A stretch of DNA of 46,669 nt, from the NCBI GenBank assembly GCA_964422775.1, contig CAYRCO010000002.1:1-46669 (forward strand). Reading direction: 5' to 3'. The translations under genes and the position numbers were made by a program. The notes under the pieces were generated by a model. The model was not told the origin of the DNA and did not search any database. It was given only the letters and a program-made list of their open reading frames with translations. Positions within the stretch are counted from its first letter, which is position 1. Each line of letters opens with the position of its first letter. Origin of the DNA: an uncultured Rhodovibrio sp. (lineage in GTDB: Bacteria; Pseudomonadota; Alphaproteobacteria; Kiloniellales; Rhodovibrionaceae). Positions 9,037 to 12,698 of this stretch are shown piece by piece.

Positions 9037-9795
9037 CTAATACCAGATCTCCATGCGCAGGCCGCGGGCGTCGCGCTCGGGCGTTTCCTCCGGCACGCGC
9101 TGGGCGCGGCCGCGCAGCAGGTCCCGGGCGACCAGCGCGCAGACGGCGGCGTCCAGGACGTCGTCCGGCTTCGCCTGGGCGCGCGGGTGCGCGGCCAGCA
9201 GTTGGTCGATGCCGGTGAGGCCGGCCGCCGCCACGAGGTCCCGTCGGGCGGTCCGTCCGGCCGGGTCCGCCTTGCGCGGCAGCGCGGCGCCGGCGTTTAG
9301 GCGATGGAACGCCAGTTCGGGGTGGGTCTCCAGCACCCGGTCCTGATCGGCCGGGCCCAGGGCGGCGTCCAGCTCGGCGATCTTGGGCATGATGTTGTAC
9401 GCCTGGATCGACAGGCCGGCGTCGCCGCGGTCCCGGGCGGCCGTGCGCACTCCGTCGTACGACAGGCCCAGCATGTAGCGGCGCGGCGGGGCGAACACGC
9501 TCGACTTGCGCGGCCCCGGCAGCACCACCCGCGCCGCCCGGTCGCACGGCCGCGCGCCCGCATCGACCAGGCCGATCGGCATGTCGACGCAGATCCGGGC
9601 GGCGTTCGTCAGTCCCTGGGTGAGCGTCGACCAATCCGGATAAATCGCGCTCGCCGCGGTCCGGCCGTCGACCGCGAGCCGGACCGCGATCCAGCCGGCC
9701 CGGCAACCGTCGACCCCGGCCACGACCCCCGGGCCGGGCCGACCGCCGCCCAGATTCGTTAACGGCGCGGGATTTTTCTTCGTGCTGTTAACCAT
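9037..9795 (-). CDS. DUF429 family protein (predicted RNase H-fold nuclease)
   Basis: GVDGCRAGW, VDMPIGL, ETHPEL, DDVLDA, GLRMEIWY; true start probably nearer 9723-9753. Confidence 0.85.
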   Translation of the reverse strand: MVNSTKKNPAPLTNLGGGRPGPGVVAGVDGCRAGWIAVRLAVDGRTAASAIYPDWSTLTQGLTNAARICVDMPIGLVDAGARPCDRAARVVLPGPRKSSVFAPPRRYMLGLSYDGVRTAARDRGDAGLSIQAYNIMPKIAELDAALGPADQDRVLETHPELAFHRLNAGAALPRKADPAGRTARRDLVAAAGLTGIDQLLAAHPRAQAKPDDVLDAAVCALVARDLLRGRAQRVPEETPERDARGLRMEIWY

Positions 9796-9802
9796 TGGTT
9801 AG
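9787..9802. promoter_or_regulatory. CtrA-binding box
   Basis: GTTAACCATTGGTTAG; minus strand reads CTAA-N7-TTAAC (consensus TTAA-N7-TTAAC, one mismatch); extra GTTAAC at 9758. Confidence 0.65.
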
Positions 9803-9821
9803 GCGGGCGTAGTTTACAACC

Positions 9822-9972
9822 GAAAGTGCGCGCGGGGTTTCTCCCTCCCCTCAACCCCGAAGCCGCCGGTCCATCGGCATCCCCTCCCCGCTGCGGACCG
9901 GTGGCGCGCGCCTCTTGAGTGAAGCCTCCCTGTCCTTGCCGCCGGTGCGCCTCCACGCACCGGCGGACTTTT
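9822..9972 (+). ncRNA. Putative sRNA-1 with anti-SD C/U-rich loops (cuckoo/alpha-r14- or AbcR-like)
   Basis: Hairpins 9833-9859 (loop UCUCCCUCCCCUC) and 9862-9905 (loop AUCCCCUCCCC); linker CCUCCCUGUCCUU; terminator CCGCCGGTGCG-CCTCCA-CGCACCGGCGG-ACTTTT; no credible ORF. Confidence 0.7.
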
Positions 9973-10059
9973 CGTCTGCCCGGGACGACCGCGACGCGCC
10001 GCAGCGGTTTGCGTGACCGACCGGTGAGCGCTACGTCGTTTGATCCGAACAGCTGCGAC

Positions 10060-10088
10060 TTGACTGCATAGCTGGTGCCCCGTACCGT
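10060..10088 (+). promoter_or_regulatory. Putative sigma70 promoter of sRNA-2
   Basis: TTGACT-N17-TACCGT. Confidence 0.5.
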
Positions 10089-10094
10089 CGCGGC

Positions 10095-10180
10095 TGACAG
10101 GGCAAGTTGACAGGGTAGGCTCACGTCAACGCAAAAACAAAAGGACCGCGGCCGCGACCCGGCCGACGGTCCTTTTTTTT
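10095..10180 (+). ncRNA. Putative sRNA-2 (about 85 nt) complementary to sRNA-1
   Basis: Lies between a promoter-like motif and a T8 terminator; two GACAGGG copies; GTTGAC/GTCAAC hairpin; 10101-10124 can form 21 bp with 9919-9940. Confidence 0.55.
10133..10180. terminator. Bidirectional intrinsic terminator
   Basis: AAAAACAAAAGGACCGCGGCC-GCGACCC-GGCCGACGGTCCTTTTTTTT. Confidence 0.85.
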
Positions 10181-10251: not shown

Positions 10252-11631
10252 TCAGTTGGTCGGGCCGGCGAAGTTGGACGGGGCCGGGTCGGCCACCTGA
10301 TGCCCCTCGGACGTCACCCGCATCACGGCGTAGCCGCGCTGGACCAGCCCATCGGGGGTCAGGCGGAACAGGCCGTTGACCCCGGCAAAGCCGTTGCGCT
10401 GGGTCAGGGCCTCGTCGGTGAACACCTGGAACGGCGGCGTGCCGTCCCGCGCCGCCCGCTTGGTCATCAGTCCGGCCAGCGCCGTCGCGTCGTAGGCCAG
10501 CCCGGCGATGTCCGGCGGCGTGCTGGCGTGGATGTCGCGGTAGCGCTGCTGGAAGCGCGACAGGCTCTCCGGCGGCGGGGCCGGGTACAAGGCGCCCTGC
10601 AGGGTCGGATCGCTGGACAAGTCCATGTCCGCCCATTGCGCGGTCCCCAGGAACTGCACCTCGTCCGGATCGATGTCGTAATACGGCAGCGTGGGCGCCA
10701 GTTGCCGCAGCTTATTGCCGCCGATCGGCAGCAACACCGCGTCGAACGGCGCCTTGCCCAGCGCGTCCAGGTTGCGCAGCCGCCGCAGTTCCTGCTGCGC
10801 TTGCGACCCCCCCTGGTTCTGCAGCTCGGCGATCCGGCGCTTGAGCTCCTGTTGCCGGCGGTTGTAGGCGGCGAGCGCCTTCACCGGCTCGGAGATGTCG
10901 CGGGCATCGGGATCGAACAGACGGCTGTCGGCCAGCTCGACGTCGTGCTTGTCGGCGGCCTCTTGCATCGCCTGCACGATCAACTCGCCATAGCCGTTGT
11001 TCGGCGCCAGCACGGCGAAGCTCTGGTTGCCCTGCGCCGCGGCGTAGCCGACGACCCGGTCGACTTGTTCGCCCGGCAGCAGGCCGGTGATCCAGACGCC
11101 CGGGCGGGCCACCTGACGGTTGTTGGAAAATGCGACGACCGGGACCCGGCCGCCTTCGGCCACCGGCGCGACCGCGTCGACCGAGGTCGAGAAGACCGGC
11201 CCCAGCAGCAGGTTGGCGCCCGCGGCGATCGCGTCCTGCGCGGCCCGGCGCGCGCCCTCGGGCGTGCCCTTGGTGTCGCGCACCACCAACGCGAACCGCT
11301 CGTCGGCGACGTCGAACAGAGCCATCTCGGCGGCGCGCAGCATCGCTTGCCCAAGGTCCGCGCGCGACCCGGACAGCGGCAGCAGCAGCCCGACGCGGTA
11401 CCGGGGCAGGCCCTCCGCCTCGGGCGGGCTCAGCTGGAGTTCCTCCGGCGCGGCGAGCGCGTCCGCCAGGATCTCCTCGGCGCTGACCTGCGGCTCGGCC
11501 GGTTGTTCGGCCGCGGCGTCCGTGTCTTGCGGCGCCTCGCCCGGCGGTGCACCCTCTTGCACCTGCTGGGCGCAAGCGCCCAGCAGCAGCAGCGCGGCCA
11601 CGCCCGCTGCGCTCAGGACGCCACGCAGCAT
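10252..11631 (-). CDS. LppC/LpoA-family penicillin-binding protein activator lipoprotein
   Basis: Lipobox LLGAC; VGLLLPLSG, AAEMALFD, LLGPVFS, LAYDA, FAGVNGLFRL; divergent from rsmI as in the yraL/yraM arrangement. Confidence 0.85.
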   Translation of the reverse strand: MLRGVLSAAGVAALLLLGACAQQVQEGAPPGEAPQDTDAAAEQPAEPQVSAEEILADALAAPEELQLSPPEAEGLPRYRVGLLLPLSGSRADLGQAMLRAAEMALFDVADERFALVVRDTKGTPEGARRAAQDAIAAGANLLLGPVFSTSVDAVAPVAEGGRVPVVAFSNNRQVARPGVWITGLLPGEQVDRVVGYAAAQGNQSFAVLAPNNGYGELIVQAMQEAADKHDVELADSRLFDPDARDISEPVKALAAYNRRQQELKRRIAELQNQGGSQAQQELRRLRNLDALGKAPFDAVLLPIGGNKLRQLAPTLPYYDIDPDEVQFLGTAQWADMDLSSDPTLQGALYPAPPPESLSRFQQRYRDIHASTPPDIAGLAYDATALAGLMTKRAARDGTPPFQVFTDEALTQRNGFAGVNGLFRLTPDGLVQRGYAVMRVTSEGHQVADPAPSNFAGPTN

Positions 11632-11654
11632 CCAAAAGGGCCCGTCGTCACGGC

Positions 11655-12698
11655 ATGTCGCGTCAAGCACGGTTGGCTGCTCCACAGGGTCGTTCGGACG
11701 CGTCGGCGCCGCCGCACCCAGCGGGCCCGGCAGCGTCCGGCGAGCGTATCCGGGGGGCCGAAGGCTCGCAACCGGACAGCACCGCGCCGGCCGCGACCGC
11801 GCCGCGCCCCGTTCCCGGCCGTGCAGGTCGGCAGGGCGACGGCGGCCGGCTGCCGGGCGGGCTGTACGTGGTCGCCACGCCGATCGGCAACCTGGGCGAC
11901 CTGACGCATCGCGCGGCCGATCATCTGGGCCGCGTCGACGCCGTATTGTGCGAGGACACGCGGGTGACCCGCCGGCTGATGGACGCCTACGGCCTGCGCC
12001 CGCCGCTGGTATCCTATCACGAGCACAACGCCGAGCAGCGCCGGCCGGAGGTGCTGCGCCGGCTCGCCGAAGGACAGGCGCTGGCGCTGGTATCGGACGC
12101 GGGCACGCCGCTGGTGTCCGATCCGGGCTACAAGCTGGTGCGCGACGTCCAGGACGCCGGCTTCCCCGTCCGCGCGCTGCCGGGCGCGAGCGCGGCGCTG
12201 GCGGCGCTGGCGATCGCCGGCCTGCCGACCGACCGCTTCTTCTTCCAGGGCTTCCTGCCCTCGAAGCAGGGCCAGCGCCGGTCGGTGCTGGCCGAGCTGA
12301 GCGGCCTCAAGGCCAGCCTGGTGTTCTACGAATCGCCGCAGCGCCTGAGCCGCAGCCTGGCCGACATGGCCGACGTGCTGGGCGCGCGCGACGCGGCCGT
12401 CGGCCGGGAGCTGACCAAGCGGTTCGAGGACCTGGTGCGCGCGCCGCTGCCCGAATTGGCGGCGCGCTTCCGCCAGGCGCCGAAGGGCGAGATCGTCGTG
12501 GTCGTCGGCCCGCCGCCAGAGGATGCGGGCCTCGCCGACGCCGCCGAGGTCGATGCCCGGCTCGCCGAAGCCCTGCGGACGCTGAGCGTGCGCGACGCCG
12601 CCGCCGAGGTGGCGGCCGAAACCGGCTGGAAGAAGAAGCAGGTCTACGACCGCGCCCTGCAGCTAAAGCGGGACGGCGCGCCCGGAGGCGATCGGTGA
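11655..12698 (+). CDS. rsmI: 16S rRNA (cytidine1402-2'-O)-methyltransferase
   Basis: LYVVATPIGNLGD, CEDTRVT, VSDAGTPLVSDPG, FYESP, RELTKRFE; start uncertain. Confidence 0.95.
   Translation: MSRQARLAAPQGRSDASAPPHPAGPAASGERIRGAEGSQPDSTAPAATAPRPVPGRAGRQGDGGRLPGGLYVVATPIGNLGDLTHRAADHLGRVDAVLCEDTRVTRRLMDAYGLRPPLVSYHEHNAEQRRPEVLRRLAEGQALALVSDAGTPLVSDPGYKLVRDVQDAGFPVRALPGASAALAALAIAGLPTDRFFFQGFLPSKQGQRRSVLAELSGLKASLVFYESPQRLSRSLADMADVLGARDAAVGRELTKRFEDLVRAPLPELAARFRQAPKGEIVVVVGPPPEDAGLADAAEVDARLAEALRTLSVRDAAAEVAAETGWKKKQVYDRALQLKRDGAPGGDR

What the first reader, a model, noticed from the sequence alone, without database searches (positions are those of the whole stretch)
9919..10180. Candidate sRNA-sponge pair: an adjacent second small RNA complementary to the seed region of the first
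Seen: 9919-9940 (GTGA-A-GCCT-CCCTGTC-CTTGCC) and 10101-10124 (GGCAAG-TT-GACAGGG-T-AGGC-TCAC), both on the + strand, can form 21 Watson-Crick pairs in four helices separated by small bulges. A terminator (9939-9972) separates them. The second segment has its own TTGACT-N17-TACCGT promoter-like motif and T8 terminator, carries GACAGGG twice, and displays AGGGUAGGCUCAC in a GTTGAC/GTCAAC loop. Established: sRNA sponges exist (e.g. SroC for GcvB). Inference: this is a tandem, non-overlapping module of an anti-SD sRNA and its own SD-mimic decoy, or an RNA-RNA toxin/antitoxin-like pair. I do not recognise it as a described locus.
Basis: partly seen in the sequence, partly recalled or inferred. Interest (0 to 1): 0.82.

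Follow-up and report, generated by a model that had tools for sequence, protein, structure and literature searches.

The report
Conserved sponge for sibling small RNAs
A short non-coding element, found in most genomes of this bacterial order and in several other alphaproteobacterial families, stays complementary through evolution to both its neighbouring small RNA gene and a distant sister gene, so it likely acts as an RNA sponge that switches off a whole family of regulatory RNAs.

Summary
The 21-pair complementarity is real and conserved. RNA-2 (about 10095-10180) has no Rfam match; my model finds it in 121 of 127 genomes of the window's order and in other alphaproteobacterial families. RNA-1 is a divergent BjrC1505-type sRNA behind a CtrA-type box (74 of 80 upstream regions). 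Across families RNA-2 co-varies with both siblings (cognate better than non-cognate, permutation p<1e-5 each; 1 of 720 in an unbiased subset), and it persists where RNA-1 is distant or not found. It is no intact SD mimic: 0 of 59 variants pair uninterrupted with CCUCCC. Best reading: an undescribed multi-target sponge working like Caulobacter CrfA on SisA-D, not CrfA itself. Expression and sponging are untested; a metY-leader role is the main rival.

The parts
9037..9795 (-). DUF429 gene, divergent upstream neighbour (true start probably downstream of 9795)
   Evidence: ORF; PF04250 E 1e-46; upstream of the module in 14 of 75 loci, bdhA in 26 of 75
9788..9802 (+). CtrA-type box TTAA-N7-TTAG at the -35 position of the RNA-1 promoter
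   Evidence: at least 7 of 8 matches in 74 of 80 distinct upstream regions versus 8.8 expected, 1 of 51 for the unlinked sibling; motif and -35 position from PMC4287350 passages
9815..9820 (+). predicted -10 element of RNA-1
   Evidence: TA exactly 11 nt after the box in 54 of 75 box-bearing regions; start about 9826 is inferred
9826..9973 (+). RNA-1: predicted ~148-nt sRNA, divergent BjrC1505-type; two C-rich hairpin loops, single-stranded seed, terminator
   Evidence: fold z -4.8; alignment; relatives score 26-37 bits to RF02356 in 10 of 20 loci; own model R1 34.7 bits
9919..9940 (+). RNA-1 seed and pairing region (anti-SD CCUCCC plus 3' extension into the terminator base)
   Evidence: largely unpaired in the ensemble
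9939..9973 (+). RNA-1 intrinsic terminator
   Evidence: 11 pairs, U-run
10060..10088 (+). sigma70-type promoter of RNA-2 (TTGACT, 17 nt, TACCGT)
   Evidence: TTGAY-N-17-TAnnnT in 7 of 7 blastn homologues; in six loci found by pairing, not by promoter, TTGAC in 6 of 6 and TAnnnT 17-19 nt later in 5 of 6 (read)
10095..10180 (+). RNA-2: predicted ~86-nt sRNA, candidate sponge; no Rfam family
   Evidence: fold z -4.8; no Rfam hit at gathering score, only chance-level hits; model R2 in 121 of 127 order genomes
10101..10127 (+). RNA-2 pairing domain, complementary to RNA-1 and to the unlinked sibling at G000:C37:4556-4626, interrupted opposite CCUCCC
10139..10180 (+). RNA-2 terminator hairpin, also terminator-like on the - strand for the convergent gene
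   Evidence: 81% of cells paired, 9 of 12 pairs with two-sided changes over 25 sequences
10252..11685 (-). LppC/periplasmic-binding-fold lipoprotein gene, convergent; neighbour only in the window's genus
   Evidence: 4 of 75 loci

Best explanation
RNA-2 is a conserved, separately promoted element whose 5' part is complementary to the shared seed of two or more sibling small RNA genes, and it likely acts as a sponge that base-pairs with and inactivates them. Shown: complementarity, conservation, covariation with both siblings, own promoter and terminator motifs. Inferred: RNA-1 (predicted CtrA-driven) and the unlinked sibling behind trxB-lysR would repress translation of mRNAs with an ACAGGGAGG-type ribosome-binding site (several encode TRAP/ABC solute-binding proteins here); RNA-2 would capture them on Hfq through the 15-nt stretch 3' of the seed, cover the seed and reach the base of their terminator stems, so de-repressing those mRNAs. 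The invariant break opposite CCUCCC would keep RNA-2 from being an SD-like site for ribosomes or for other CCUCCC sRNAs such as suhB.
For: Conservation: 53 of 57 alphaproteobacterial-type pattern hits have the RNA-1 seed upstream on the same strand, 2 are cut by contig ends, 2 lack it nearby; R2 model in 121 of 127 order genomes, 30 of 44 in another order. Covariation, one genome per family: adjacent sibling n=13, cognate -36.3 vs non-cognate -29.0 kcal/mol; unlinked sibling n=15, -37.6 vs -32.7; permutation p<1e-5 each; RNA-2s found by the model only, n=6, 1 of 720 permutations; unlinked sibling without G000, 0 of 100000. Best trans partner in the genome is the C37 sibling (-49.7, rank 1 among 5544 prefiltered windows apart from RNA-2's own antisense strand; RNA-1 -38.2, rank 11); with opening costs -21.8 and -22.2, 0 of 300 shuffles each. 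Action in trans: RNA-1 3.7 kb away in G007, on another contig in G219, not found upstream in the 9 loci read from genus g12, where the 3 genomes searched hold the unlinked sibling. A partner change predicted for G388 before the search was found in part, with G-U pairs, plus a third sibling. suhB copies pair weaker than the best cognate sibling in all 4 genomes compared. Hfq present. Known seed-sharing sRNAs repress transporter mRNAs (SorY-takP, PMC4615379 passages).
Against: No expression or interaction data. Complementarity does not give direction: the siblings could equally control RNA-2. metY follows RNA-2 co-directionally in 47 of 75 loci and a strict own promoter was seen in only 15 of 47 spacers. 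G159 adjacent RNA-1 ranks 13 of 13 and G061 unlinked sibling 14 of 15; no cognate advantage among 6 close loci in G169's order (p 0.18); within the window's order the advantage is about 1 kcal/mol. Five RNA-2s were first found by pairing, which favours the adjacent test; related families are not independent. ctrA was not found in the G000 assembly (95% complete), though present in G001 and G013. ACAGGGAGG is near an ATG ORF in 9 of 18 sites, no more than CAAGGGAGG (13 of 25), so the target list is weak.
Confidence: 0.7

Rival explanations
1. RNA-2 is the 5' leader of metY (O-acetylhomoserine sulfhydrylase): the sibling sRNAs bind it and set read-through of its terminator; it survives rearrangement because its hairpin also ends the convergent gene.
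For: metY co-directional downstream in 47 of 75 loci, including loci without adjacent RNA-1; spacers of only about 43-64 nt with no promoter motif in L013, L015, L071, L006, L016, L130.
Against: 20 of 75 loci, the window included, have a convergent gene instead (16 Hsp20, 4 LppC) yet keep promoter and pairing domain; a separate promoter motif precedes metY in 15 of 47 spacers versus 3.3 expected; RNA-1 relatives without RNA-2 also precede metY (L083, L084); no consistent anti-terminator emerged (inconclusive).
Confidence: 0.13
2. RNA-2 is itself an mRNA-targeting sRNA and the siblings are its antagonists, or the three titrate each other mutually.
For: Own promoter, A-rich linker and U-tail typical of Hfq clients; CrfA and SisA lower each other's levels (PMC12559287 section 7).
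Against: RNA-2's only conserved single-stranded sequence follows changes in the siblings, leaving little room for a fixed mRNA seed; its strongest genome match is an sRNA.
Confidence: 0.1
3. One read-through RNA in which the match is an intramolecular long-range stem.
For: The 355-nt region folds with that stem.
Against: Conserved terminator and promoter between the two; seed-to-core distance varies 93-266 nt over 65 loci; separation by kilobases or contigs; covariation with an unlinked gene.
Confidence: 0.03
4. Non-functional relic of an inverted duplication, or chance.
For: A local inverted copy explains the origin of complementarity to the neighbour.
Against: Presence in 121 of 127 genomes, covarying terminator, tracking of an unlinked gene, and a systematic break opposite the seed (0 of 59 uninterrupted).
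Confidence: 0.02
5. Type I toxin-antitoxin-like pair.
For: Tandem small RNAs with long complementarity.
Against: ORFs of 12 or more codons occur in 10 of 50 RNA-1 and 4 of 50 RNA-2 sequences, with no shared peptide across genera; single-copy chromosomal setting.
Confidence: 0.02

Closest known systems
CrfA sponge of SisA-D (alpha-r8/suhB family), Caulobacter crescentus (PMC12559287; abstract and sections 6, 7, 12 read)
   Same: One independently transcribed RNA complementary to the shared anti-SD core of several sibling sRNAs with unrelated promoters; alphaproteobacterial host; Hfq present.
   Different: Different target family (seed continues CCUCCCUGU, not UUUCCUCCCU); RNA-2 is usually encoded directly behind one target; pairing centres 3' of the seed and is always broken opposite CCUCCC; found across many families with visible covariation.
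BjrC1505 sRNA family (Rfam RF02356)
   Same: Same 3' seed and terminator and same upstream TTAA-N7-TTA box in the alignments; 4 of 7 above-threshold members sampled have an RNA-2 behind them.
   Different: Window RNA-1 does not reach the model; longer 5' part with two extra C-rich loops; no antagonist mentioned in the passages seen.
SorY (RF02651) and SorX (RF02784), Rhodobacter sphaeroides
   Same: Rfam consensus shares the CCUCCCUGUU seed and following stretch; SorY represses the TRAP-binding-protein mRNA takP with Hfq (PMC4615379 passages).
   Different: All scores below threshold; SorY has an RpoH promoter and SorX comes from a 3' UTR; no sponge in the passages read.
QrrX-Qrr, SroC-GcvB (PMC13501541 passages)
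   Same: sRNA sponges, QrrX acting on a sibling set.
   Different: Unrelated hosts and targets; SroC is an mRNA fragment.
AbcR1/2 locus behind trxB-vtlR/lsrB (PMC7486931 passages)
   Same: The unlinked sibling occupies the same position behind trxB and a LysR gene.
   Different: No alpha-r15 hit; the LysR's identity as VtlR/LsrB rests on synteny and recall, not on a profile.

Membership tests
BjrC1505 (RF02356) for RNA-1 | Covariance-model score at or above 50 bits | tested here: not met
   Not listed at E<=10 for the window; order relatives 26-37 bits in 10 of 20 loci
BjrC1505 (RF02356) for RNA-1 | 3' GCCUCCCUGU seed followed by a GC-rich terminator | tested here: met
   model R1 scores window and above-threshold members alike
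BjrC1505 (RF02356) for RNA-1 | Upstream TTAA-N7-TTA box seen at the 5' end of the Rfam consensus | tested here: met
   9788-9802; 74 of 80
BjrC1505 (RF02356) for RNA-1 | Expressed as a discrete sRNA | not testable with these tools
   no RNA run was listed
alpha-r8/suhB/MmgR/Sis (RF00519) for RNA-1 | 10-mer UUUCCUCCCU core (PMC12559287) | tested here: not met
   RNA-1 reads AGCCUCCCUG; true suhB copies are separate loci
alpha-r8/suhB/MmgR/Sis (RF00519) for RNA-1 | Score at or above 41 bits | tested here: not met
   25-33 bits in 5 of 20 relatives
alpha-r7 (RF02342) for RNA-1 | Score at or above 60 bits | tested here: not met
   22.9 bits; not seen in relatives
CrfA-type sRNA sponge for RNA-2 | One RNA complementary to the shared core of several sibling sRNAs | tested here: met
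   (in silico)
CrfA-type sRNA sponge for RNA-2 | Complement of the alpha-r8 10-mer (being CrfA itself) | tested here: not met
   0 of 59 uninterrupted; suhB duplexes -20 to -29 kcal/mol
CrfA-type sRNA sponge for RNA-2 | Own promoter and terminator | tested here: met
   motifs conserved; activity untested
CrfA-type sRNA sponge for RNA-2 | Hfq-dependent pairing that lowers partner level or activity in vivo | not testable with these tools
   only the hfq gene was shown
SorY/SorX for the unlinked sibling | Score at or above the family threshold (111 / 46.6 bits) | tested here: not met
   SorX 23-41.5 bits in 7 relatives, G000 copy not listed
Type I toxin-antitoxin | Conserved small toxic ORF on one RNA | tested here: not met

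The most novel reading that the evidence does not exclude
RNA-2 is an ancient bacterial bulged target mimic: one short RNA that has co-evolved with a whole seed superfamily (BjrC1505-type, the trxB-lysR sibling, SorX/SorY-like RNAs), grips them 3' of the seed and keeps an obligatory break opposite the anti-SD hexamer so that ribosomes and suhB-type sRNAs ignore it, thereby wiring CtrA cell-cycle output and VtlR/LsrB signalling into one switch over nutrient uptake.
Probability: 0.3. Interest if true: 0.85.

Novelty: new variant of a known kind. Interest (0 to 1): 0.7.

Why it matters
Bacterial sRNA sponges have mostly come from interactome experiments in single model species. Here one is visible from comparative sequence alone, in most genomes of two orders and in scattered families across Alphaproteobacteria, with compensatory changes between separately encoded RNAs. 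It ties together Rfam families treated as unrelated (BjrC1505, SorX, SorY) as seed-sharing siblings, exposes an uncatalogued, highly conserved sibling behind trxB-lysR, and gives exact, testable pairings, promoters and candidate targets in cultured genera named (Kiloniella, Rhodovibrio, Tistlia, Pelagibius).

Tried and rejected
Rfam at gathering score over the window: 0 hits; the alpha-r7 and alpha-r14 hints did not hold in relatives. My first idea that RNA-1 is an alpha-r8/suhB member was dropped (10-mer absent, true suhB copies elsewhere). EcpR1 and GspR/SmelC776 were read up and do not fit (overlapping antisense, other loci). Sequencing runs: no RNA holder listed. No match among plasmid records or viral contigs. 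R2 model: 1 of 73 genomes in G070's order, terminator part only; G162's order held 1 genome, no match. Six of 63 pattern hits (Paenibacillus x2, Psychrobacter, Thiodictyon, Coleofasciculus, Eubacterium) lack RNA-1 and were dropped as chance; five loci identical to earlier ones were dropped before counts. Anti-terminator test inconclusive. The original BjrC1505 paper is not held. Earlier-finding look-ups gave one unrelated note and two blanks. Ten paper searches showed no description of this element; subscription papers and supplements were not covered.

Full report
Observation. They sit in the gap between a divergent DUF429 gene and a convergent LppC-like gene. A terminator-like hairpin closes the first element; the second has a TTGACT-N17-TACCGT motif, a long hairpin and eight Ts. 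Each predicted RNA folds better than all 200 shuffles. Within this genome the match is unusual but not overwhelming (1 of 2000 shuffles). The duplicated GACAGGG and the GTTGAC/GTCAAC hairpin are confined to the window's genus (2 and 4 of 51 distinct loci).

Conservation. blastn found the region in 6 relatives of the same family, all with the same order: box, RNA-1, terminator, promoter, RNA-2, terminator. A promoter-plus-core pattern over the species-representative genome collection gave 63 loci, mostly titled Kiloniellales; the closest named records are Rhodovibrio. Six were unrelated bacteria lacking RNA-1 and were dropped; of the other 57, 53 have the RNA-1 seed upstream, 2 are cut by contig ends, 2 lack it nearby. 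A covariance model of RNA-2 with its promoter (25 sequences) hits 121 of 127 genomes of the order, mostly once, 30 of 44 in G169's order, and only a terminator fragment in 1 of 73 in G070's order. In 150 genomes spread over the class, all 9 hits with E<1e-8 lie directly behind a hit of the RNA-1 model; 6 were training sequences, 3 were new, and 2 weaker new ones are adjacent too. The tallies, and probably 34, include the unpublished genome G099; no other claim rests on it. The promoter was part of the pattern and model, so its conservation there is circular; in six loci found by pairing alone, TTGAC recurs in 6 and a TAnnnT 17-19 nt later in 5 (read). The terminator stem co-varies.

What RNA-1 is. 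Rfam gives nothing at threshold. Relatives score 26-37 bits against BjrC1505 in 10 of 20 loci (threshold 50) and share its seed and upstream box. Of 7 above-threshold BjrC1505 members found in 131 genomes, 4 have an RNA-2 behind them and 3 do not. A TTAA-N7-TTA box is matched at 7 or 8 of 8 positions in 74 of 80 upstream regions (8.8 expected), with a TA 11 nt later in 54 of 75; this is the geometry of CtrA-activated promoters (PMC4287350, passages). ctrA is present in G001 and G013 but was not found in the window's 95% complete assembly, and LysR-type regulators bind a similar TTA-N7/8-TAA box (PMC7486931, passages), so CtrA control is inferred. RNA-1 is not an alpha-r8/suhB member; those are separate loci. 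I file it as a divergent BjrC1505-type RNA, not a threshold member.

The third partner. The RNA-1 model found a second locus in the genome, G000:C37:4556-4626, about 410 nt behind trxB and a LysR gene, the position AbcR1/2 hold in Agrobacterium. It shares the seed, is almost invariant across the genomes read, follows the same LysR gene in 7 of the 14 other loci tested, which included 2 of another type, and resembles SorX below threshold. It is the best trans match to RNA-2 in the genome (-49.7 kcal/mol, first among 5544 prefiltered windows after RNA-2's own antisense strand; RNA-1 is eleventh at -38.2). With opening costs the two are equal (-21.8 and -22.2; 0 of 300 shuffles each).

Covariation. 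With one genome per family, cognate duplexes beat non-cognate ones for the adjacent sibling (n=13, -36.3 vs -29.0) and the unlinked one (n=15, -37.6 vs -32.7), p<1e-5 by permutation after double-centring. Five RNA-2s had been found by pairing to the neighbour and one by eye; with only the six found by the model, 1 of 720 permutations is as good; the unlinked test had no such selection (0 of 100000 without G000); both hold on the core alone. Exceptions: G159 adjacent rank 13 of 13, G061 unlinked rank 14 of 15. Inside the window's order the gain is about 1 kcal/mol (31 genomes, p 0.002 and 0.0007; core fixed by my pattern; unlinked better in 18 of 31), and among 6 loci of G169's order none (p 0.18). 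Kin are not independent, so p values overstate. A change predicted in advance for G388's partner appeared in part, with G-U pairs, along with a third sibling. RNA-2 persists 3.7 kb from RNA-1 (G007), on another contig (G219), and with no RNA-1 seed upstream (9 loci of genus g12; G122, G171, G190).

The break. In 0 of 59 distinct RNA-2 pairing regions does the complement run uninterrupted through CCUCCC; one to three extra or mismatched bases, or loss of the distal helix, always intervene. These bases were outside my search pattern. suhB copies pair at -20 to -29 kcal/mol, weaker than the best cognate sibling in each genome compared.

Mechanism. Most likely RNA-2 is a sponge as CrfA is for SisA-D (PMC12559287, abstract and sections 6, 7, 12). 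The siblings would repress SD regions; among 15 candidate genes I chose from 71 motif-bearing starts, 3 encode DctP, 1 OpuAC and 1 NMT1-like binding proteins, recalling SorY-takP (PMC4615379, passages), but the motif is not more start-enriched than a control. hfq is present. Main rival: a metY leader; metY follows in 47 of 75 loci, a convergent gene in 20; a separate promoter motif precedes metY in 15 of 47 spacers (3.3 expected) while six spacers are short and promoter-less. No conserved ORF supports a toxin-antitoxin reading.

Novelty. Sponges are known, so the kind is not new. RNA-2 has no Rfam family, ten paper searches showed no account of it, and the scan's index held nothing on it. Other papers seen as passages only: PMC4414408, PMC5928217, PMC3927594, PMC13501541, PMC8959179, PMC5546546, PMC7143759, bioRxiv 2022.01.24.477521; PMC3346310 part 2 of 6. 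The original BjrC1505 paper was not held; no supplements were read, and interactome or sRNA tables in them might list a homologue under another name. Verdict: real, conserved, new variant of a known kind; interest 0.70; sponge mechanism 0.70, untested in cells.

Noticed in passing
G000:C37:4556-4626 (+), L146:1501-1571: Highly conserved sRNA-like element behind trxB and a LysR gene, found across many alphaproteobacterial families, below every Rfam threshold (SorX-like seed); deserves its own family.
   Followed up: partly
Rfam RF02356 alignments: The first ~40 model positions of BjrC1505 coincide with the TTAA-N7-TTAA box and -10 element, so the model appears to include the promoter.
   Followed up: partly
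window 9834-9905: Two extra hairpins with CCCUCCCC loops in RNA-1 of the window's family; RNA-2 does not cover them, so RNA-1 might keep some activity when bound.
   Followed up: no
G000 whole assembly: No ctrA orthologue found (best 37% identity) although the same-genus G001 has one; assembly gap or loss.
   Followed up: partly
L012, L022, L033, L040, L041 (Kiloniella-type loci): RNA-2 carries an inserted extra hairpin before the terminator and has lost the helix distal to the seed.
   Followed up: no
L282 (G261:C1:6946679-6946749): Tandem repeats of a 13-nt unit running into a seed-like element and terminator.
   Followed up: no
L350, L352 (G388); L281, L290 (G011); L090 (G061): Further unlinked siblings with the same seed, up to three per genome.
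   Followed up: partly
L086, L135: RNA-1-type genes followed directly by the bidirectional terminator of a convergent Hsp20 gene, as if RNA-2's promoter and pairing domain had been deleted.
   Followed up: no
L075, L078, L089, L113, L007, L047: RNA-1-type genes often lie just upstream of a DUF1465/RcdA-like gene (name recalled), which would fit a CtrA-linked neighbourhood.
   Followed up: no
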